A stretch of DNA of 64,000 nucleotides, from positions 1 through 64,000 of the IMG/VR virus record IMGVR_UViG_3300044213_000170. One strand, written 5' to 3'. The DNA is from a virus. This document shows, one piece after another, positions 24,153-56,956 of the stretch (the first letter of the stretch is position 1; the number at the start of each line of letters is the position of its first letter). The notes beneath the pieces were generated by a model, which saw nothing but the letters and a program-made list of their open reading frames with translations, had not been told where the DNA came from and made no database searches. Made by a program: the position numbers and the translations under genes.

Positions 24153-24470
24153 TTACCACCACTTCTCTACTTCTTCTGGATTGTTATAATCGACCCAACG
24201 ATTTGCATCACAATTCCAATGACGATTATCACTGATGCCTAGTCGGATTCCGAGTCCAAGTACTCGCAACTTAAACTTTGGTCCGGCGTGACTTTGGCCT
24301 CGCCAACGTGTGTCAATGCTTAAATCAAACCAATCCCAAGTATAGAAATCAATGCCCCACTCAAAAGTTTTGTTTTTAGTGATAGCGTGATCGGCTTGCC
24401 CGAGATCTCGCCACGGACTCGTGGTGTCATTATGCCACGGGTTCTGAATAGAAAATCCAATATAAATCAT
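24153..24470 (-). CDS. Trp-rich hypothetical protein
   Basis: 105-aa ORF, translationally coupled. Confidence 0.6.
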   Translation of the reverse strand: MIYIGFSIQNPWHNDTTSPWRDLGQADHAITKNKTFEWGIDFYTWDWFDLSIDTRWRGQSHAGPKFKLRVLGLGIRLGISDNRHWNCDANRWVDYNNPEEVEKWW

Positions 24471-24721
24471 TCTTCAACTCCGAAATGTTTTAGAATATTG
24501 GTGTGAACACGGCGCATAATAGCATCAATGTCATCACCATCTTCTACACTGTCATATCCAACTTCGGCACATTCCCTGACAATCAACTCGGCGAACTTGG
24601 CCAATTCTTCATCATAGTTGCTTGACCAGTCAATAGTGTTGCCTTTGGGTCGCCAATCTTCATCAGCCCAAAAGATAAATCCAGCCTGCTCTGCTAATTC
24701 TAAAAATCTTTCTTTGTTCAT
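24467..24721 (-). CDS. Small phage protein of the FAELIV.EC..HFGVEE family
   Basis: Paralogous motif. Confidence 0.65.
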   Translation of the reverse strand: MNKERFLELAEQAGFIFWADEDWRPKGNTIDWSSNYDEELAKFAELIVRECAEVGYDSVEDGDDIDAIMRRVHTNILKHFGVEE

Positions 24722-24810
24722 TCTTCAACTCCGAAATAAGTGTATCCCATTCCCCCGGCAGCTACGACAGGAAAACCATACTTGTTAACTAGATCAACTA
24801 CGCTATCCAT
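24718..24810 (-). CDS. 30-aa chimeric ORF (N-terminus of a 16587..16946 homolog fused to an FGVEE end)
   Basis: MDSVVDLVNKYGFPVVAAGGMGYTYFGVEE. Confidence 0.55.
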   Translation of the reverse strand: MDSVVDLVNKYGFPVVAAGGMGYTYFGVEE

Positions 24811-24928
24811 AATCCAAATCTCTTTCTAAAAATGTAGAATTTAAGCCTTAGTCTATACCAAGGATTACTCAATCTTTGTGCTTTCTCTATCTCAAACAGC
24901 CTAAGATTTTCTGCTACGGTTTGGATGT

Positions 24929-25210
24929 TCATTCTTCAACTCCGAAATGTTCTTTCACTCTACGAATAGATTCATCAATAGCACCAATGGCAAAATCCTC
25001 AATGTCTGCCATATTACGGTATGGATTGCCGCGTTCAATTTGCATTTGTTGGATACATTCCAGAACAATCAACTCGGCGAACTTTTCTCGGTCCCATACC
25101 TTTTGTTTATGAACAGATACAATCGTAGGATCTACTACAGAACTTTCGTAAGGCACTTCATAGACCACATAAGCCTGTTCATAAAGTTCGTTGATTTTTG
25201 CTTTGTTCAT
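24929..25210 (-). CDS. Small phage protein of the FAELIV.EC..HFGVEE family
   Basis: Paralogous motif. Confidence 0.65.
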   Translation of the reverse strand: MNKAKINELYEQAYVVYEVPYESSVVDPTIVSVHKQKVWDREKFAELIVLECIQQMQIERGNPYRNMADIEDFAIGAIDESIRRVKEHFGVEE

Positions 25211-31539: not shown

Positions 31540-31857
31540 TCACTTAATAATTGAGCCGCCGTTTACTGGTGCAATACCTGTAGTAGTTTGTATATAATGA
31601 TTTTCCATCTCTTTTATCGTCACAGAATGTATCATTACATGATCGGTTCTTAGCTCTATATTTTTATTTATATCCCCAGTAAATAGGCTTTGTATTAACC
31701 CTATACCTTGAGCACTAGGCACTACAGTGCAGGGTCTATTAACGATCCAGCCTGTCATTGACGTTTCGACTATTTTAGCAATTAATTCATCACCATTTAC
31801 TAATTTAAATGAAACAACATCGTCTTTATCGTACTTAGAGTTATTGTTAAACAGCAT
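31540..31857 (-). CDS. Conserved phage protein (Sm-like)
   Basis: FKLVNGDELIAK and Y.Q.TTGI motifs. Confidence 0.55.
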   Translation of the reverse strand: MLFNNNSKYDKDDVVSFKLVNGDELIAKIVETSMTGWIVNRPCTVVPSAQGIGLIQSLFTGDINKNIELRTDHVMIHSVTIKEMENHYIQTTTGIAPVNGGSIIK

Positions 31858-32098
31858 TTGCTCGCTCCATTAATTCGCTTTCGGTTAATTTGGAAAGTCC
31901 TTGATATCCGCCCTGTACAAATAACTTGCCATCTTTATAAAGTTGCGGTACTGTTCTATGGCCTTCGTTTACGATGAATTGTCGTGCATCTGGGTTTTCA
32001 TCCACTTTAATTTCTTCGTACGAAATATTTTTTAATTTAAGAAGATTTTTTGCTTGATCGCAAAAAGGGCAATTGTTTTTTGAATAAATTGTTATCAC
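31847..32098 (-). CDS. Glutaredoxin
   Basis: CPFC, TVPQ and GGY motifs; next to nrdB. Confidence 0.92.
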   Translation of the reverse strand: MITIYSKNNCPFCDQAKNLLKLKNISYEEIKVDENPDARQFIVNEGHRTVPQLYKDGKLFVQGGYQGLSKLTESELMERANAV

Positions 32099-32142: not shown

Positions 32143-33246
32143 TTAAATTTCAGGAAGTTCATCATAATTAAGTTGATCGGTCATAACACCAATTACATAA
32201 TTAGTGCTTTCATTTTCTTGCAATGCGGTTTGTTTTTTACTAGTATCACTATGTTTATTAAACCAAGGGATAGGTGTATTCTTTGGTGCAGGTAAATGAT
32301 ATTTAATACCGATTTCTTTTAATGCCGTCGCTGCAGTATAATCTACAAACTCTTTAAGAATAGACGGCCCTAATCCAATAACCGGACCTTTATGGAACAA
32401 ATAATCGGCCCACTCTTTCTCCTCACGAATAACATCTAAATACATGGCATACACTTCGTCTTTACATTCTTGTGCAACCCTAGCAAACCTAGCATCTTCT
32501 TTTACTACTTGATTAATAATATATGCCGTCCACCCCTTATGCAACATTTCATCCTGAAGAATTAAACTAATAATATTGCCATTACCGATAAAAATCTTAT
32601 TTTCTACCATTGCCAAACTTGTAGCAAATGATACCATAAATCTAAAGGCTTCTAATGCATAACTAGCATTAAGAGCCAACCAGATTGCTTTAATGTGGGA
32701 TTCCTCACTGACGGTTCTTGGAGATACTTCTTTAAAACAATTTAGTTGATGCAAGTCGTCATAATACTTACCAACACTACTAGCCATGTTTACGATTTCT
32801 TGTGTGTCATGTATAGTATTGAATACCGCTTTTGGTACATTATAAATGTTACGAATGATGTGACTATAACTGCGACTATGAATATTTGTTTCAAAGAATG
32901 TCCAATTATATACAAGTGCTTCTAATTCTGGTAAACTTACAACAGGTGTAAAGATTTGACTGGGACCGCGACCTTGCAAACTGTCTAATGCTGTTTGACG
33001 TAATAGGTTGCTAGTGAAGATATGTCTAACTGTATCACTAGCATCCTTGAAGTCGCCGGCGTCTTTAGTTAAACTGATTTCTTCCGGAACCCAAAAGAAT
33101 CCACGTGCGGTTTGTTCAAAGTCAGCGATTTTTTTATATTTCACCTCTTCAAACCTTTGTATTACCACCGGTCCTTCGGGATCCAAAAACATTTTTCTTG
33201 TTAGATAGTTTGGATTTTTTGACAAATCATATTGTGCTCTACTCAT
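32143..33246 (-). CDS. nrdB: Class Ia ribonucleotide reductase beta subunit
   Basis: FFWVPEE, LDSLQGR, ETNIHSRSY, EAFRF..SF, DEMLH and QE.E..Y motifs. Confidence 0.96.
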   Translation of the reverse strand: MSRAQYDLSKNPNYLTRKMFLDPEGPVVIQRFEEVKYKKIADFEQTARGFFWVPEEISLTKDAGDFKDASDTVRHIFTSNLLRQTALDSLQGRGPSQIFTPVVSLPELEALVYNWTFFETNIHSRSYSHIIRNIYNVPKAVFNTIHDTQEIVNMASSVGKYYDDLHQLNCFKEVSPRTVSEESHIKAIWLALNASYALEAFRFMVSFATSLAMVENKIFIGNGNIISLILQDEMLHKGWTAYIINQVVKEDARFARVAQECKDEVYAMYLDVIREEKEWADYLFHKGPVIGLGPSILKEFVDYTAATALKEIGIKYHLPAPKNTPIPWFNKHSDTSKKQTALQENESTNYVIGVMTDQLNYDELPEI

Positions 33247-33254
33247 TTATTTCC

Positions 33255-33944
33255 TTATTGATGTTTATGGAATCTAGATAATCCCATATTATTAGTTTCT
33301 TTTTGACACACTACGCAAGATACTCTGGTTCGGGCAGGATTATTATTTATAAAGTAACATTCGCCATTTTCAATCTGTTCTTTCATCCATTCTGAGTGCT
33401 TAATACCATGTTGCTTCTTCCACTCAGGATCAATGAAATGATGCGTACCTGCCTTAACTCTATCAGATGCCACACTGGTGCCGTCAGGGCGTTTTAGTAA
33501 ATTATGTTTTCCCTCCGCAACTAACCTTTTAGTTACCTTACCACCTAAGTTTGCTTTTGGAGGATCATTGACAAAATTGTGCGTCCCATTATCTATTCTT
33601 TTCTGTGCATTTTCTTTTCCAGCATCTCTCAGTTTTTCAATGGCAGATTCAGTGTGTTTATATCCAGAATTATTGCCTCTACCACCATTGGTAGAATTTC
33701 TCAGTATCCCCGTACCCAAATCTTTTCGTCCATATTGTTCAATTAGTTCCGATTCATAATCGTATGCTTCTTCTTCATACAAACAATCTCTTAGAATGAC
33801 TATTTTACTTTTATCTTTCGGCAAAAGATTAGTTCCATTCGTTCCCGTATGTGATTTCCATGCTCTATCGTTACTGCCCTTACCAATGTAATAAGGTGTT
33901 AGGTCTTCTCGTAGATATGCGTAAACATAAAATATATTTTCCAT
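33255..33944 (-). mobile_element. Free-standing GIY-YIG homing endonuclease between nrdA and nrdB
   Basis: YVYAY..PYYIGKG..R, E..LI and N...GG motifs; repeated G(T/K)H(N/H)(F/L) units; C-terminal CxxC..H. Confidence 0.82.
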
Positions 33945-34003
33945 TATTTCTCCTAATGCATAATACTATTTATCATTTACGCTTCATATCGTTGAATAGT
34001 TAC

Positions 34004-35017
34004 TCAAAGTTTGCATGCCTCACAATCTTCCATGTCGTCAAAATCAATGACTTCTGGTGGTGCTTCAATATCATCTTGTACTTTGGCTCCCTGCTTATTA
34101 ATAAGTGAGTAATAAAAAGTTTTGGTTCCGTAATAATGTGCCATCATCAAGTTTTTAGCAACCAATGTCGTTGGAACTTTTCTGTCAGGAAAATGTGCCG
34201 GATTGTAGAAAGTATTTACAGATATTGCCTGATCAACATATGCTTGTAATACAGCCGATGTTTTTAGATACCCGACACAATCTGTTTGATCCCACATCAA
34301 TTGATATTTGTTTTTCAATTTGTGATATTCTGGAACAACTTGTGTAAATGATCCTGCTTTGCTTTCTTTAACTGTAATTAAACTCATTGGCATTTCTATG
34401 CCGTTAGTGCTATTAATAACGACACTACTAGATTCTACAGGAGCAATCGCCATTTGTGTAGCATTACGGACACCATATTCTTTCATCTGAATTCTCAGTG
34501 ATTCCCAATCCAATTCCGGTGCAAAGTTTGCTAGTTCATTTACACCTGCGGCACGTACTTCCCACGGGAATGTACCTTGTCCATATCTAGTTTTGTCACT
34601 GTCTAAACATTTACCACGCTCTTTTGCTAACTCAACCGATGCCTCTGTTAAATAGTAGGCTTGATGTTCCATCCAAGTTTTTACATCTTGCAACGCATCT
34701 TTATCACCATACTTATAATCTCGCTTGGCGTGCCAATACGCTAAGTTAGTGACACCAATACCTAGCGGACGGATTTCGTCATTGCTTAATTTACTTTGGA
34801 TACTTAGAAAATCTTGATAGTCCAAAATATTATTGAGACTGCGGTGAAGAATACGACAGGCACGACGCATATCTTCCGGGTTACGGAAGGCACCCCAATT
34901 GATAGAGCCGAGTGTGCAAAGAGCCACTCTGCCCTCCGCTTCATCAATCTCAAAATATTCGTATTCATCATCTAACTCTTCGGGTAGATATTCTATTTCT
35001 TCATATAGTTCGTTCAT
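34004..35017 (-). CDS. nrdA: Ribonucleotide reductase alpha subunit, C-terminal fragment (NrdA-b)
   Basis: ALCTLG (C462 equivalent), RPLGIG, APVESSS, TFYY and terminal CEAC. Confidence 0.93.
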   Translation of the reverse strand: MNELYEEIEYLPEELDDEYEYFEIDEAEGRVALCTLGSINWGAFRNPEDMRRACRILHRSLNNILDYQDFLSIQSKLSNDEIRPLGIGVTNLAYWHAKRDYKYGDKDALQDVKTWMEHQAYYLTEASVELAKERGKCLDSDKTRYGQGTFPWEVRAAGVNELANFAPELDWESLRIQMKEYGVRNATQMAIAPVESSSVVINSTNGIEMPMSLITVKESKAGSFTQVVPEYHKLKNKYQLMWDQTDCVGYLKTSAVLQAYVDQAISVNTFYNPAHFPDRKVPTTLVAKNLMMAHYYGTKTFYYSLINKQGAKVQDDIEAPPEVIDFDDMEDCEACKL

Positions 35018-35024
35018 TATTCAT

Positions 35025-36494
35025 CTACCTTATCTTCCTGATGTTAACAATGTCATTTGATTTTGTTTTCATAAACTCGTCTACATTGGACTTTTTAACT
35101 CTAATCAACTTTCGTTCAGAATTCATTCGCTTGAAACTCTTGGTGGGCAAAAGGATTTCGCAACATAAATTCGACTGATAAATCTTATGATATTCAGGAT
35201 CAAACGGACCTTGATTCATTACATTGTCTATGAACACAAGATAGATACGTCCGGTGTCTGTACGTTCTTTTAAAATGCCGCCTTTGAATACTTCTTCTGC
35301 TGACATAACTTTTTTACGCAAGCCCGATTGTTTTTCATATTTTGTATATAATTGTTCAAACAACTGAGTATCTCTGTAAAATGCTTCGTACAAGTCAGGT
35401 ACTTCGTTGGGATCAAAGAAAGTAATATTTTCTTTATTTTTAAAGCGGCGCCAAAAGAAGGCACTTAATACAACGCCATAGTCCATATGACGTACACGTG
35501 TTTCTTCCGTACCTTGATTATTCTTTAGAACGATAAGATCATCAAATTGATGATGCCAAATTGGATAAAATACTGTGGCGCTGGCATTACGTATACCACC
35601 CTGACTACAACTTCGTAGATCGCCGAACCATTTCTTTAAGAATGGTATCATACCTGTATGCATAATTTCCCCGCCACGAATAGGACTACCAAGCGGACGT
35701 AAGCGACCAATCTCTAATCCTATGCCAGCACGTTTGCTGGCATACTTGGCCATCATTTCGCCCGAAGCAAAGATACTATCAAGATCGTCGTCACTGCGAA
35801 TGAGAACACAACTGCTAAACTGTTTAGTTGGAGTTCCAAGGCCAGCAAGCACAGGAGTAGCGAGAGTGAAAAGACCATCGGACGCCGCATGGTAATACTC
35901 TTTAATGTATCGCATCCTTGCTGTGTTAGGTTCTTCTTTGTGAAATACTGTTGCAGCCGCGACCATATATCTAATTTGGGGAGTTTCATATGTTTCCTTA
36001 GTAGCACGATTTCTAACTAGATATTTTTCAATTAACTGTTCAATCGCAGCATAGCTATATTGTTCGTCCTTCTCATGGTCCAACATGGCGTTCATTTTAT
36101 CCCAGTCTTCTTTTGTATACCACTCAAGAAGTTCAGGAGTATATAATCCTACGCTTACATTTTTTTTAACAATCTCATATATGTGTGGTACTTCGTAGTC
36201 GCCGTAGACATCTTTGCGTAACATACTAAGACGTTGTTTACCGGCCACATATTGATAATTTGTATGTCCTACTTCGGGGTTATTTTCTACGTCGATTAAA
36301 TCGACTATAGCTCGCAGTGTTATTTCATCTATTTCTCGTGTAGTGATATTATCATAAAATTGAGGATGACTTTTAATTTCGATCATACTCTGACTTACAT
36401 CTGCTACACCTCTACAAACTTTTTGAACTTGTGCTTGCCACTTTTCAACCGACAATGGTTCTTTATTGCCTGAACGTTTTACTACTTGAATCAT
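35025..36494 (-). CDS. nrdA: Ribonucleotide reductase alpha subunit, N-terminal fragment (NrdA-a)
   Basis: ATP-cone VVKRSG, TPVLAG, FSSC, SQGGIR and SNLCCE (N437/C439/E441 equivalents). Confidence 0.95.
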   Translation of the reverse strand: MIQVVKRSGNKEPLSVEKWQAQVQKVCRGVADVSQSMIEIKSHPQFYDNITTREIDEITLRAIVDLIDVENNPEVGHTNYQYVAGKQRLSMLRKDVYGDYEVPHIYEIVKKNVSVGLYTPELLEWYTKEDWDKMNAMLDHEKDEQYSYAAIEQLIEKYLVRNRATKETYETPQIRYMVAAATVFHKEEPNTARMRYIKEYYHAASDGLFTLATPVLAGLGTPTKQFSSCVLIRSDDDLDSIFASGEMMAKYASKRAGIGLEIGRLRPLGSPIRGGEIMHTGMIPFLKKWFGDLRSCSQGGIRNASATVFYPIWHHQFDDLIVLKNNQGTEETRVRHMDYGVVLSAFFWRRFKNKENITFFDPNEVPDLYEAFYRDTQLFEQLYTKYEKQSGLRKKVMSAEEVFKGGILKERTDTGRIYLVFIDNVMNQGPFDPEYHKIYQSNLCCEILLPTKSFKRMNSERKLIRVKKSNVDEFMKTKSNDIVNIRKIR

Positions 36495-36514
36495 TTATCT
36501 TGAACCTATACTTA

Positions 36515-36970
36515 TTATATTATTTTATCAAGACCCAAATCCGCTATGGTTATGGTTCTTTTTAATTTTAAGTTTTTATTGACTTGTGCTTTATTTAATA
36601 CCGTGTCATGTTCCATATTAAGAACATATAATCCTTGGTTAACAAAGACTAAATTATACTGTTCATTAGTTGATGGGTCAACAAATATTTTTATTTCTAA
36701 CTCAGGCTTATGTTCGCTTAGATATAAAGTATATACTATACCTAGTGCAATTGCAAGAGTACAGTAATAATTTTCAAAAATTAATTCCCAAGGACCGGGC
36801 CACAGGGAAATATCATCCAAGCTAAGATAATGTTTTTGATATGGAGTATAACTCCACATATGTTCGGTTTCTTTAACTGCATCAGCCAAAGATAAGCCAG
36901 AAATTTTTGTTCTAAATTCTTGCCATAACCGAAGTCGGTGGTATGGCATCTCGTTCCAAAAAGTATTCAA
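36515..36970 (-). CDS. Hypothetical protein
   Basis: 151-aa ORF. Confidence 0.6.
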   Translation of the reverse strand: MNTFWNEMPYHRLRLWQEFRTKISGLSLADAVKETEHMWSYTPYQKHYLSLDDISLWPGPWELIFENYYCTLAIALGIVYTLYLSEHKPELEIKIFVDPSTNEQYNLVFVNQGLYVLNMEHDTVLNKAQVNKNLKLKRTITIADLGLDKII

Positions 36971-36973
36971 TTT

Positions 36974-37522
36974 TTACCAGGTAAAATCAGATTTTGTAAA
37001 TTTCATATCTGCCGAATTACCGGCAGTTGTTGTTGCTACCAGCACCGCAGTGTTACCATGCATCACTGCCCCTAATATAATACCTATATTAGTGGATTCA
37101 ACATAGTCATCTCTGGTTGAAACATAAGTACCATTATGTGCAATAAAAAAATTCCCTGCTCTAAAATCAGAGTCACGTTTGATTGTATAATTTATAACTG
37201 CGGCAGGTTCATCAATCCCGAATGATACCGGTATGGTATTGACAGTCACATTGGCTAGTGTTACCCCTGCACTGATGCTATCAGTGTTTTGTTGGACATT
37301 GGCACCATAGTAAATGTTCACATTGGCATTACCGCTAGTAATATCCTGCTGTGTAATCACCTTAACTATGGACCCAGGATTAACTGCCTCAGGATCGGAC
37401 CCTACACCGATATATAATTCATGTGTATCTACACACCAGCCGAATTCGCCACCGTCTAATTGCGATAAATCGTCCTTGATACCCCTACGAGTTTTAACTT
37501 TGCTAATCTGTGTTACGGCCAT
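36974..37522 (-). CDS. Putative tail/structural protein with an Mtd_N-like N-terminus
   Basis: RRG..L..GEFGW..DT.ELYIG; TATAAATA late promoter upstream. Confidence 0.55.
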   Translation of the reverse strand: MAVTQISKVKTRRGIKDDLSQLDGGEFGWCVDTHELYIGVGSDPEAVNPGSIVKVITQQDITSGNANVNIYYGANVQQNTDSISAGVTLANVTVNTIPVSFGIDEPAAVINYTIKRDSDFRAGNFFIAHNGTYVSTRDDYVESTNIGIILGAVMHGNTAVLVATTTAGNSADMKFTKSDFTW

Positions 37523-54173: not shown

Positions 54174-55016
54174 TCAAGATTGCCAGTCTATTTTTTCCAG
54201 ACTGAATGGGTAGTTGGCTTCTTTGTAGAATGATTTTCGTTTAGTAAGATGTCGTTTGGCAAATTTACAGGTGCTTGTGATGTCCCAAATTTCAACGTGG
54301 TCCTTGTCTTGAGCTTTCCTAATACCTCGGCCAATAGATTGTATAACCCTAACAAAGCTCTTTCCGGGTTCCACAAGAACCAAATTAAAGATCCGAGGAA
54401 TATTAATCCCCACAGCGGCCACACCATAAGTCGCCACAATAACTTTCCCATCTGCGGTAGCCACCTCATCATATTCTTCCTTTCGATCCTTGGCCTTTGT
54501 TGCGCCACTAACAAATACAGCATCTTTGATTCTGCTGGTCAATTCCTTGCCCGGGCCCACTCTATCTACTAGAACTAATGTGTTACCTGACTCCGCTATC
54601 TTACTGATCATATTGCTCATATAATCAATTCGTTCTTGTGTTTCTAACAAATATCGTAGCTCTTGCTGATAGTCTTTGTATTCTACATAGTCTACCATCT
54701 GTACTATATTTACATGACAATTACTCAAGTGGCCTGCTTCTTGAAGTTCGTTGGCGCTGAGTTTTCCTACCACTGGCCCGATGCAACAAAATAATGCTTG
54801 AGCTGCATATTCTTCTTTTGGTATGGTCCCCGTTAGCCCCCAACGGATCGGTGTATTGGCAAATACGCTGGTTAACAAAGTTTTTAATGCATCTGCTTTA
54901 GCACTATGGCAATTAGATACAACTGCGCCATTAACAATATAGTTGTGATCATTTTGAATATGTAGGTTATACACCAATTCAGGTTTTGTGATTTCTGTTT
55001 TCTTTATTAATTTCAT
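54174..55016 (-). CDS. uvsW: UvsW-like SF2 helicase C-half preceded by the split-intein C-part
   Basis: 35-aa IntC (VYNLHI..HNY..NG..VSN) followed by CH, GLTGT and QSIGRGIR. Confidence 0.9.
   Translation of the reverse strand: MKLIKKTEITKPELVYNLHIQNDHNYIVNGAVVSNCHSAKADALKTLLTSVFANTPIRWGLTGTIPKEEYAAQALFCCIGPVVGKLSANELQEAGHLSNCHVNIVQMVDYVEYKDYQQELRYLLETQERIDYMSNMISKIAESGNTLVLVDRVGPGKELTSRIKDAVFVSGATKAKDRKEEYDEVATADGKVIVATYGVAAVGINIPRIFNLVLVEPGKSFVRVIQSIGRGIRKAQDKDHVEIWDITSTCKFAKRHLTKRKSFYKEANYPFSLEKIDWQS
54912..55016 (-). mobile_element. Split intein C-fragment (IntC)
   Basis: Blocks F/G ending Ser-Asn; +1 residue is Cys. Confidence 0.9.
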
Positions 55017-55912
55017 AATGTTATTAATTTCTTAATTTTTTCCTGTGTGTTAACATCAAACACAGTATAATCAATATTGCCAATTTTCTTAGCAGTTAAA
55101 CAAATCCATTCTTTGTTTACTAGGATTACATTATAACAGCTATTTTCGGCCCATTGCAACAATGCAGTATATTTTGCCATAAATTTTTGTTCGGAACATA
55201 ATTCTATCGGTTTTACTTCGATGCAAGTTTTGGTTATGTGATTTACAAAATCAACTATATAAACACGTTCTTTACTGTTATACTGATATGGTATTCTCAG
55301 AGTTTCATATAATGCATCTTTATCAAAATACTGATACAATGCCTCCCAGCTTGATCGGTAACGCTTACCATTATACTGTGCATCCCAATGAGTATTTCTA
55401 TTATTAGAGTTCGGAGTAAACTTACCTGATAAAATTAGTGATTTCATTAATTTAGAATGTGCCTCTTTTTGATCAGCTGACATTCGTTTGCCGTACATAC
55501 CGTTGTTTTTACCTTTGTTCTTTTCACTAATTTTTAATTTAGATTCTTCTGTATGCGGTGTACCCAGAAATCCTGTTTTCCCTTTGTTCCAAGGAATACC
55601 TGTATTTAAATTGTTTATTATTTTATTTTTATGAATATGCCAACAAGAATTACCACCCAATTTGGCTAATTCTGTCTTGATTTCTTTTTCTGTTTGTGCA
55701 CCGTCAAGTAAGTTATCAACGTTTTTAACCCATATATCCGTTTTTTTGTTTAGCAGGCGCCTTTTAAACTTCTGCAAATCTTTACCACTTATTAATATAC
55801 CGTTTGATAACTCAACTGTTTTATTTTTATAATCCACAATTCTGGTAATTTGACCATAATGTGTTAACAAGTTATTAATATCTACAATCCAACTATTATT
55901 TGTTTTTTTCAT
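55013..55912 (-). mobile_element. Free-standing homing endonuclease (NUMOD3 plus TnsA-like PD-(D/E)XK)
   Basis: PWNKG..HTEESKLKISE..KG..NGMYGK; YRSSWE..YE..IPY..YIVDF..IEVKP. Confidence 0.82.
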
Positions 55913-55939
55913 TAATGCATCTGCTTTAGCTGAATGTAC

Positions 55940-56956
55940 TTATGTTTTATTTATTATTTCGTGATTTTCGGTCAACTCATCGGCCCTGCACCAACCCAAG
56001 TTAGTCAAAAATTTATGGTTACCAGTTACTTCTATTATAGTCCCATTATCAAATTCTAACTTATACATTTTTTCTGACTCAGAATTTGTTAAATTTATGT
56101 GCTGTTTTACCACCGTGTCTGTTTTAAATTCTTTTGCGGTCTCAGAATAATTAATGATTACATCACCAACAGCAACATCTTTTATGGGCTTATATCCGTC
56201 CACTGTTAATACTAACGAATCGCCGGAAAAGCATTCATCGACCATAACACAAACCACATTTTCTACGAATTCACCGATAGTCATATCGGCTTCGTAATTT
56301 TTTGTATTTTTAAGTAAAGCATTGAGGCTTTGCCAAGTGCATATTGTATGTGTACGGTTATACTCTTTCCTGTCGCCGAATAATACCCCAACATCCAGCC
56401 CCATATTAATATAATCGGCTTCGGTCTGTGTCACAAGACTTTTGCTGGGCACAATAACTATGCTACGACCATATTTTTGCACACTTGCAGACAATGCCGC
56501 TGTCATAATAGTTTTACCCGCACCTGTAGCCACTTCCTGTATGCATTGAGGATTTTCTAAAAATTTATTTACAATTTCAACTTGATAATCTCTCATTAAT
56601 ATCGGTTGACCTTCTGCCGGATGTCCTTTTGGCCATTTGATATCTTGGAATGTTGTTTCTGTAACAGGGTCAAATTCAAATGTAGTGCTGTATTGCCGTA
56701 AATCATTTACTTCTATATCGTAACCCCGTTCGTCCAAAAACGGCAAAATTTCGGGCAACAAGTTAATATATGTAGTGCCTCCTAGATTAAAATAAGGAAC
56801 TTTGCCGTCCCAACGACCAAGACGTACTGCTGGCAAGTACCTTGCTCCAGGAATCTCATATTTAAACTTATCAACTAATCGTTTCCGATCAGTTAATTCT
56901 ACGTTATGAAGTTTACAATTAACTTCATCTTTAATTTCAATTATACAGGTTGTCAT
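55940..56956 (-). CDS. uvsW: UvsW-like SF2 helicase N-half fused to the split-intein N-part
   Basis: WDGK, RDYQ, TGAGKT and VMVDE, followed by the intein start CFSGDSLV. Confidence 0.9.
   Translation of the reverse strand: MTTCIIEIKDEVNCKLHNVELTDRKRLVDKFKYEIPGARYLPAVRLGRWDGKVPYFNLGGTTYINLLPEILPFLDERGYDIEVNDLRQYSTTFEFDPVTETTFQDIKWPKGHPAEGQPILMRDYQVEIVNKFLENPQCIQEVATGAGKTIMTAALSASVQKYGRSIVIVPSKSLVTQTEADYINMGLDVGVLFGDRKEYNRTHTICTWQSLNALLKNTKNYEADMTIGEFVENVVCVMVDECFSGDSLVLTVDGYKPIKDVAVGDVIINYSETAKEFKTDTVVKQHINLTNSESEKMYKLEFDNGTIIEVTGNHKFLTNLGWCRADELTENHEIINKT
55943..56233 (-). mobile_element. Split intein N-fragment (IntN, 97 aa)
   Basis: Block A CFSGDSLV, block B VTGNHKF, and GW.RADEL. Confidence 0.9.

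What the first reader, a model, noticed from the sequence alone, without database searches (positions are those of the whole stretch)
34004..36494. nrdA split inside the active site, with charge-complementary zipper tags and no intein or intron
The break lies between the SNLCCE loop (C439/E441 equivalents) and ALC (C462 equivalent). The two ORFs are 7 nt apart and in different frames, and the second has its own AAGG-type RBS. Fragment a gains a ~33-aa tail, MNSERKLIRVKKSNVDEFMKTKSNDIVNIRKIR (10 K/R, 4 D/E). Fragment b gains a head, MNELYEEIEYLPEELDDEYEYFEIDEAE (14 D/E, no K/R). RKLIRVKK and YEYFEID both alternate like pairing beta-strands. A fragmented but active NrdA is known from Aeromonas phage Aeh1, where mobE sits in the gap; here the gap is empty. 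Inference: the tags form a non-splicing electrostatic heterodimerisation module that rebuilds the active site. The split might also protect against endonucleases that target intact nrdA.
Basis: partly seen in the sequence, partly recalled or inferred. Interest (0 to 1): 0.82.

Follow-up and report, generated by a model that had tools for sequence, protein, structure and literature searches.

The report
Endonuclease-free split ribonucleotide reductase gene
This uncultured large phage makes the big subunit of ribonucleotide reductase as two separate proteins with a basic and an acidic peptide extension; it is a member of the split-nrdA family known from Aeromonas phage Aeh1 that no longer carries the selfish endonuclease gene between the halves.

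Summary
nrdA lies on the minus strand as nrdA-a (35025-36494) and nrdA-b (34004-35017). They are 7 nt apart, and stop codons close all three frames at the junction. No intron, intein or recoding signal was found.

Crona et al. 2011 (PMC3045599) showed that Aeh1 NrdA-a has a basic tail and NrdA-b an acidic tail, and that both are essential for activity.

The window's a-tail is homologous to the Aeh1 tail (shuffle test, p about 1e-4), although the enzyme cores are only about 41% identical. The acidic head shares a motif but is not significant alone.

More than 100 metagenomic protein clusters carry the same head. Tail and head are under strong purifying selection (dN/dS about 0.09 and 0.04).

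Nearly all split relatives hold a homing-endonuclease gene, mostly GIY-YIG, in the gap (0.6-1.6 kb). Closely related unsplit and split-intein alleles also exist. Split and unsplit alleles interleave on the tree, as expected for a mobile cassette.

AlphaFold2 on a read-through relative predicts the tail as strand-helix-strand and the head as strand-loop-strand (pLDDT about 90).

Only the empty gap is unusual. This scan has already found the same cassette family on other DNA. Verdict: a new member of a known kind, moderate interest.

The parts
35127..36494 (-). nrdA-a core: ATP-cone, all-alpha domain and first half of the class Ia RNR barrel. It holds the C225-equivalent (FSSCVL) and NLCCE (N437/C439/E441 equivalents).
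   Evidence: Pfam PF03477, PF00317 and PF02867 positions 1-222; translation.
35028..35126 (-). Basic C-terminal tail of NrdA-a: 33 aa, 10 K/R, 30% GC. It replaces the LDDxx loop of unsplit relatives.
   Evidence: Homologous to the Aeh1 NrdA-a tail. dN/dS 0.085. Predicted strand-helix-strand in a homologous allele.
35025..35032 (-). TAAGGTAG: Shine-Dalgarno-like sequence for nrdA-b, overlapping the nrdA-a stop codon TAG (35025-35027).
   Evidence: Sequence read directly. Its function is inferred.
35018..35024 (-). 7-nt gap (ATGAATA) between the two genes. The same position holds 45-1632 nt in relatives, mostly with a homing-endonuclease gene.
34934..35017 (-). Acidic N-terminal head of NrdA-b: 28 aa, 14 D/E, no K/R.
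   Evidence: dN/dS 0.038. Predicted strand-loop-strand.
34004..34933 (-). nrdA-b core: second half of the barrel with ALC (C462 equivalent), FYY (Y730/Y731 equivalents) and the C-terminal CxxC.
   Evidence: Pfam PF02867 positions 215-522; translation.
33255..33944 (-). Free-standing GIY-YIG-type homing-endonuclease-like gene between nrdA-b and nrdB. It is not in the split.
   Evidence: Pfam GIY-YIG E 0.0035, below the curated cutoff. phrog_314 'homing endonuclease' E 1.8e-10.
32143..33246 (-). nrdB, the RNR small subunit, intact.
   Evidence: Pfam PF00268 E 4.6e-41.

Best explanation
The window carries a functional 'gene in pieces' class Ia ribonucleotide reductase of the Aeh1 type.

How it works:
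- The two polypeptides assemble without covalent joining into a normal NrdA fold.
- The basic a-tail (strand-helix-strand) and the acidic b-head (strand-loop-strand) probably pack together as a small sheet at the broken loop, between the C439/E441 strand and the C462 strand.
- By homology with Aeh1, this module is needed for activity, mainly by allowing the (a/b)2 dimer of heterodimers and the holoenzyme to form.

Where it comes from: tail, head and the intervening space form a mobile cassette family that normally carries a homing-endonuclease gene. In this allele that gene is absent, either lost or never acquired. What remains is a fixed, selected split that cannot easily revert.

Shown here: the anatomy, conservation, purifying selection, a-tail homology to Aeh1, endonuclease genes in relatives' gaps, and the predicted secondary structure.

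Inferred: separate translation, tail-head contact, the need for the tails, and the history of the endonuclease gene.
For: - Anatomy and closed frames at the junction.
- All catalytic motifs are intact.
- More than 100 protein clusters at 79-86% identity keep the head over 100% of the query.
- dN/dS is 0.085 for the tail and 0.038 for the head, with pS 0.6-0.7.
- Unsplit relatives read KSFKR-LDDxx-GRIALC at exactly this point.
- The a-tail aligns with the Aeh1 tail: score 48 against shuffles 20.5 +/- 4.1, p about 1e-4.
- The motifs [KR]x[IL][KR]VKK and EEYxYxExD recur in further divergent split NrdAs with other gap genes.
- Homing-endonuclease genes of three families (two with GIY-YIG matches; the third matches only an HNH-endonuclease PHROG family) fill relatives' gaps.
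- Split and unsplit alleles interleave on the NrdA-b tree. Well-supported branches force at least 4-5 changes.
- AlphaFold2 on a read-through of allele L120 gives pLDDT 89-95 for tail strands 459-467 and 482-488 and head strand 581-589.
- The whole model matches E. coli NrdA at TM 0.98, rmsd 2.0 A.
- Aeh1 biochemistry: PMC3045599.
Against: - Nothing here shows expression, assembly or activity for this phage.
- The acidic head is not significantly similar to the Aeh1 head once composition is controlled (p 0.2).
- The fold is a single chain with an artificial 72-residue linker, from a sister allele with the second tail type. I could not inspect the contacts.
- The Shine-Dalgarno-like sequence is imperfect.
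- The tree is a quick tree, and recombination inside nrdA-b could also cause the interleaving.
Confidence: 0.85

Rival explanations
1. Convergent origin. The tails arose independently in this lineage and only resemble the Aeh1 tails because any split NrdA selects for oppositely charged amphipathic peptides.
For: Head similarity to Aeh1 is not significant after shuffling (p 0.2). The enzyme cores are only about 41% identical. An earlier scan note on a related freshwater allele called it apparently independent.
Against: The a-tail matches at the same position with the same order of elements: ExxLxxVKKSxVDxF, p about 1e-4. The second tail type shares the PTVxMG start with Aeh1. The same motifs recur in several other divergent lineages.
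Confidence: 0.08
2. Sequencing or assembly artefact, or a decaying pseudogene. The real gene is one ORF with a loop insertion, or nrdA is no longer used.
For: The two ORFs are only 7 nt apart and in different frames, which at first sight looks like a frameshift.
Against: All three frames are closed at the junction. A separately listed contig has the identical junction. Dozens of relatives have the same stop and start separated by 45-1632 nt. Both extensions are under purifying selection. All catalytic residues are kept. No protein over 590 aa carrying the head was found, which is weak evidence.
Confidence: 0.03
3. One polypeptide is restored by recoding or splicing: programmed frameshift, ribosome bypass as in T4 gene 60, a small intron, or protein trans-splicing.
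For: T4 gene 60 bypassing also follows a basic nascent peptide and a stop codon. Relatives of this very gene carry a true split intein at NLC|CE.
Against: No Rfam family matches in 33000-37000. The junction RNA folds no better than shuffles (z -0.97). I saw no matching take-off and landing codons. The tail does not start with Cys/Ser, and the head does not end in HN plus a nucleophile. Pfam finds no intein domain. In relatives the halves are up to 1.6 kb apart with other genes between them. In Aeh1 both tails are present on the mature separate proteins (PMC3045599).
Confidence: 0.03

Closest known systems
Aeromonas phage Aeh1 nrdA-a / mobE / nrdA-b 'genes-in-pieces' RNR (cited and extended in Crona et al. 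2011, PMC3045599)
   Same: Same enzyme and the same loop, between the C439/E441 and C462 equivalents. Two independently translated ORFs. Basic AT-rich C-tail on fragment a and acidic AT-rich N-head on fragment b. The a-tail is sequence-homologous.
   Different: Aeh1 has the HNH endonuclease gene mobE in the gap, overlapping nrdA-b. The window has 7 nt and no gene. The enzyme cores are only about 41% identical. The head here is longer, with an extra LPEELDD segment.
Metagenomic freshwater split-nrdA alleles with endonuclease genes in the gap
   Same: 79-86% identical proteins with the same tail and head.
   Different: Their gaps are 597-1632 nt and hold one of three homing-endonuclease families, plus small ORFs ending in the FGVEE joint. 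The window lacks all of this, including the GGAGTTGAAGA ribosome-binding joint.
Fractured genes with split inteins and a free-standing endonuclease (Dassa et al. 2009, PMC2677866, seen in the search list only; alleles P0101, P0118, L020 here)
   Same: Same layout of N-fragment, extension, stop, endonuclease gene, start, extension, C-fragment. It occurs in the same gene of the same phage group, 11 codons upstream.
   Different: Those extensions are intein halves ending in HN before Cys, and they splice. The window's extensions lack every intein motif and stay on the proteins.
T4 gp39 / mobA / gp60 split topoisomerase, compared in the discussion of PMC3045599
   Same: A phage enzyme split by a free-standing endonuclease, with tail-like extensions of opposite charge.
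   Different: Different enzyme. Gene 60 also needs ribosome bypassing, for which there is no sign here.

Membership tests
Aeh1-type split NrdA with assembly tails | Class Ia nrdA broken between the C439/E441 strand and the C462 strand into two ORFs. | tested here: met
Aeh1-type split NrdA with assembly tails | Basic C-terminal tail on NrdA-a and acidic N-terminal tail on NrdA-b, both absent from unsplit NrdA. | tested here: met
   unsplit relatives have only LDDxx at this point.
Aeh1-type split NrdA with assembly tails | Tail sequences related to those of Aeh1. | tested here: inconclusive
   a-tail: yes, p about 1e-4. Head: shared EEYxYxExD-like motif, but p 0.2 by shuffling.
Aeh1-type split NrdA with assembly tails | Homing-endonuclease gene between the fragments. 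| tested here: not met
   The window's gap is 7 nt. The feature is met in most relatives. This feature defines the mobile cassette, not the assembly mechanism.
Aeh1-type split NrdA with assembly tails | Tails required for activity and for (a/b)2 formation. | not testable with these tools
   Shown only for Aeh1 (PMC3045599). Here the support is indirect: dN/dS 0.04-0.09.
Split intein (fractured gene) | The N-extension starts with Cys/Ser and has intein blocks A/B. The C-extension ends in HN followed by Cys/Ser/Thr. | tested here: not met
   The tail starts with Met after KSFKR. The head ends in AEGRVA. Pfam finds no intein domain. True split-intein alleles look different.
Group I/II intron | A structured RNA of 200 nt or more interrupting the ORF. 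| tested here: not met
   No Rfam match. The gap is 7 nt.
Gene 60-type translational bypass or programmed frameshift | Matched take-off and landing codons, a stop-codon hairpin or a slippery site, with one product. | tested here: not met
   Three closed frames. No significant structure. nrdA-b has its own ATG and ribosome-binding sequence.

The most novel reading that the evidence does not exclude
The tail and head may be the two halves of one small strand-helix-strand / strand-loop-strand domain that also exists as an uninterrupted loop insertion in a few phage NrdAs (P0134, P0207, perhaps P0157). On this reading they are not random DNA brought in by an endonuclease.

Endonuclease genes would then land in, or leave, a hairpin of this domain. 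The window would show the end state: the domain stays cut and charge-optimised after the endonuclease gene has gone, and the allele is immune to re-invasion of the intact site. Such a self-associating pair could serve as a natural, portable split-protein tag.
Probability: 0.3. Interest if true: 0.55.

Novelty: new member of a known kind. Interest (0 to 1): 0.38.

Why it matters
- It shows that an enzyme cut through its active site can stay cut, under selection, without the selfish gene that normally occupies the gap. The fragmentation then behaves like a ratchet rather than a passing stage of the homing cycle.
- With its relatives, it shows that the Aeh1 tails had no database match in 2010 only because of sampling. 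They belong to a widespread conserved module.
- The minimal 7-nt junction is a simple natural construct for testing what the tails do, without any endonuclease effects.
- The basic idea is published, and this scan has met the same cassette family several times, so the gain is incremental.

Tried and rejected
- Megablast of the locus and tblastn of the a-tail against cultured phages found nothing. tblastn of NrdA-b found only hits below 60% identity that start after the head.
- A search for proteins over 590 aa that carry the head found none. A search for relatives of the P0134 insertion found only P0134 itself.
- Pairwise shuffle tests of the continuous insertions (P0134, P0207) against the tails gave only p 0.02-0.13. 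That link stays a hypothesis.
- The first AlphaFold2 run used an alignment in which MAFFT placed tails over the core. It gave low confidence at the tails.
- An alignment made only of fragments was unusable, because the b fragments aligned onto the a half. It was not folded.
- A read-through of the window's own junction was not possible. It needs a +1 shift, and the four-letter words that could give it also occur in frame elsewhere in both genes. I used a sister allele with an in-frame gap instead.
- I looked for the deletion path of the endonuclease gene. The window reads TAG-ATGAATA-ATGAAC, and L103 reads endonuclease stop TAG-GATGAACA-ATGAAC. This is suggestive but not decisive.

Full report
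**1. What is in the sequence**

On the minus strand the window encodes this run of genes:
- nrdA-a, 35025-36494, 489 aa
- nrdA-b, 34004-35017, 337 aa
- a GIY-YIG-like free-standing endonuclease gene, 33255-33944
- nrdB, 32143-33246
- a glutaredoxin-like gene, 31847-32098

Pfam puts the ATP-cone, the all-alpha domain and barrel positions 1-222 on fragment a. Barrel positions 215-522 are on fragment b.

Fragment a keeps FSSCVL and NLCCE. Fragment b keeps ALCTL, FYY and the C-terminal CxxC. No catalytic residue is missing.

The two ORFs are 7 nt apart and in different frames. At the junction all three frames carry stop codons: TAG in the a-frame, TGA in the b-frame, and TAA and TGA in the third. 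One indel therefore cannot join the ORFs.

A separately listed Logan contig is identical over 4865 nt, including the junction.

Tail and head are AT-rich: 30% and 33% GC against 39% in the core.

**2. No splicing or recoding**

- Rfam finds nothing in 33000-37000.
- The junction RNA folds no better than shuffled sequence (z -0.97).
- The extensions have no intein motifs, and Pfam finds no intein domain.
- nrdA-b has its own ATG. It is preceded by TAAGGTAG, which overlaps the nrdA-a stop codon.

**3. The idea is already published**

Crona et al. 2011 (PMC3045599) studied the Aeh1 enzyme, which is split in the same loop by the HNH endonuclease gene mobE. They reported:
- AT-rich extensions, basic (pI 10.4) on NrdA-a and acidic (pI 3.8) on NrdA-b
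- both extensions are present on the mature proteins
- deleting both lowers activity about 2000-fold
- deleting both does not prevent a/b pairing, but it impairs formation of the (a/b)2 dimer of heterodimers and of the holoenzyme
- they found no database match for the tails

**4. The window's tails belong to the same family**

I aligned the window, a second tail type from relatives, and Aeh1. The a-tails are collinear: E-[KR]-x-L-[IF]-[KR]-VKKS-x-VD-x-F.

With composition-preserving shuffles the window-Aeh1 a-tail score is 48 against 20.5 +/- 4.1 (p about 1e-4). The enzyme cores are only about 41% identical.

The heads share [DE]EY-x-[YT]-x-E-x-[DE]. Being low-complexity, they are not significant on their own (p 0.2).

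I then searched 1.84 billion cluster representatives with a profile of the last 75 residues of NrdA-a. It found the same tail motif at the C-termini of several more divergent NrdA-a proteins.

Two of their loci show a matching acidic head with EEYVY-type strands. Their gap genes differ: a GIY-YIG gene in L135 and a 594-aa DUF7487 ORF in L136.

**5. Population picture**

More than 100 protein clusters at 79-86% identity keep the head across the full length of the query.

In IMG/VR most close relatives are unsplit. They read KSFKR-LDDxx-GRIALC, so tail, gap and head together replace five codons.

Other relatives carry a true split intein 11 codons upstream, with the C-intein ending in HN before CEILLPT.

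Among about 45 split loci the gap sizes are 45, 216, 597, 800-801, 987, 1047, 1073, 1204, 1298, 1372, 1418, 1466, 1503 and 1632 nt.

The gaps hold one of three homing-endonuclease families. Two have GIY-YIG and phrog_314 'homing endonuclease' matches. The third matches only an HNH-endonuclease PHROG family. Small ORFs often accompany them.

The right border of most gaps is the joint TTYGGAGTTGAAGA-ATG. The same joint links a small-gene array elsewhere in the window, at 24468-24946.

Three more relatives taken from the big protein database include two with occupied gaps.

Gaps without an endonuclease gene are rare:
- the window, 7 nt, the shortest seen
- the second tail type, 45 nt, on three contigs
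- L120, 216 nt
- L093 and L094, 597 nt, with one small ORF only

**6. Selection and mobility**

Across 13 alleles of the window's tail type:
- a-tail: pN 0.138, pS 0.68, dN/dS 0.085
- b-head: pN 0.046, pS 0.61, dN/dS 0.038

On a quick maximum-likelihood tree of NrdA-b cores, split and unsplit alleles interleave. Well-supported branches force at least 4-5 changes of state. This fits a cassette that moves between alleles. It also fits frequent recombination inside the gene.

The two tail types go with two versions of the end of the head: EAEGRV and EDAARI. These residues sit next to the start of the tail at the base of the loop.

**7. Predicted structure**

The window's own junction cannot be read through by reference. 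I therefore used allele L120, which has the second tail type and an in-frame gap of 216 nt. Reading TAA as Gly makes the gap a 72-residue linker.

The alignment for the fold (A7) contained nine other read-through alleles, so tail and head columns were correctly aligned.

AlphaFold2 results, mean pLDDT 87.5:

| Element | Residues | pLDDT |
|---|---|---|
| a-tail strand | 459-467 | about 95 |
| a-tail helix | 468-476 | about 92 |
| a-tail strand | 482-488 | about 89 |
| linker | 496-543, 555-563 | below 50 |
| b-head short strand | 568-570 | about 70 |
| b-head loop | 571-580 | about 90 |
| b-head strand | 581-589 | about 95 |

The last head strand leads into the barrel strand that carries the C462 equivalent.

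An earlier run with a misaligned alignment gave only about 50-80 over these segments.

The whole model superposes on E. coli NrdA with target TM 0.98 and rmsd 2.0 A.

I could not inspect coordinates, so their pairing is inferred from the DSSP strand assignment and the high confidence.

**8. Best reading**

This is an endonuclease-free member of the Aeh1-type split-NrdA cassette family. Two proteins are made, and they rebuild a normal alpha subunit.

Tail and head probably form a small shared sheet at the broken loop. By homology with Aeh1, they are needed for activity, mainly through formation of the (a/b)2 form.

I cannot say whether the endonuclease gene was lost or never present. The window's junction TAG-ATGAATA-ATGAAC resembles the endonuclease-stop to nrdA-b-start junction TAG-GATGAACA-ATGAAC of L103. 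That hints at loss, but the path is not resolved.

Three different endonuclease families, each with its own left border in the same gap, fit equally well with repeated colonisation of an older empty split.

**9. A more novel possibility**

Two full-length phage NrdAs, P0134 (828 aa) and P0207 (806 aa), both next to nrdB, carry an uninterrupted 54-residue insertion in the same loop.
- The two insertions are related to each other (p 0.0006).
- MAFFT and HMMER align them collinearly with the tail.
- Pairwise significance against the tails is only p 0.02-0.13.

If the relation is real, the tails are the two halves of a pre-existing insertion domain.

**10. Novelty**

The mechanism and the family are known. 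This scan has already reported the same cassette family in coliphages and in a freshwater phage.

What this window adds:
- the endonuclease-free minimal junction
- evidence that the freshwater tails are homologous to the Aeh1 tails rather than independent
- strong purifying selection on tail and head
- a confident predicted fold for the tail and head segments

Noticed in passing
P0101, P0118; L020 around 1950-2030: Close relatives (83-85% identical core) carry a split-intein C-fragment ending in HN directly before CEILLPT. This is a fractured nrdA at the NLC|CE site, 11 codons upstream of the tail split.
   Followed up: partly
L086:330-3500: One relative appears to have nrdA in three or more pieces. 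An intein-like ORF and an HNH-like 311-aa ORF interrupt nrdA-a, and a further endonuclease-like ORF sits in the tail gap.
   Followed up: no
L007, L109 and L110 (L109:1290-2868): The alleles with the 45-nt gap have a separate insertion of about 1.6 kb inside nrdA-a near residue 295. Its nature was not examined.
   Followed up: no
window 24468-24946 (minus strand); relatives' gaps, e.g. L001:3985-4003: The 17-nt joint TTCGGAGTTGAAGAATG occurs three times in a small-gene array of the window (none expected by chance). The same joint forms the right border of the nrdA gap in most split relatives. It looks like a recombination joint that moves small ORFs between loci.
   Followed up: partly
window 33255-33944 (minus strand); L089:369-959: A fourth family of GIY-YIG-like free-standing endonuclease genes (N-terminus ..FYVYAYLRED..YYIGKG) sits between nrdA-b and nrdB in the window, and upstream of nrdA-a in a relative.
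   Followed up: partly
P0147, P0157, P0200, P0184 (alignment A7): Other full-length phage NrdAs have unrelated or weakly related insertions of 10-75 residues in the same loop. The loop tolerates insertions in general.
   Followed up: no
window 8727-17245 and 54174-56956: Earlier first-reader notes mention a curli-like secretion cluster and a uvsW gene fractured by a split intein in this window. I did not examine either. The window is from a large phage, with a DnaB-like helicase and a tail-fibre protein.
   Followed up: no
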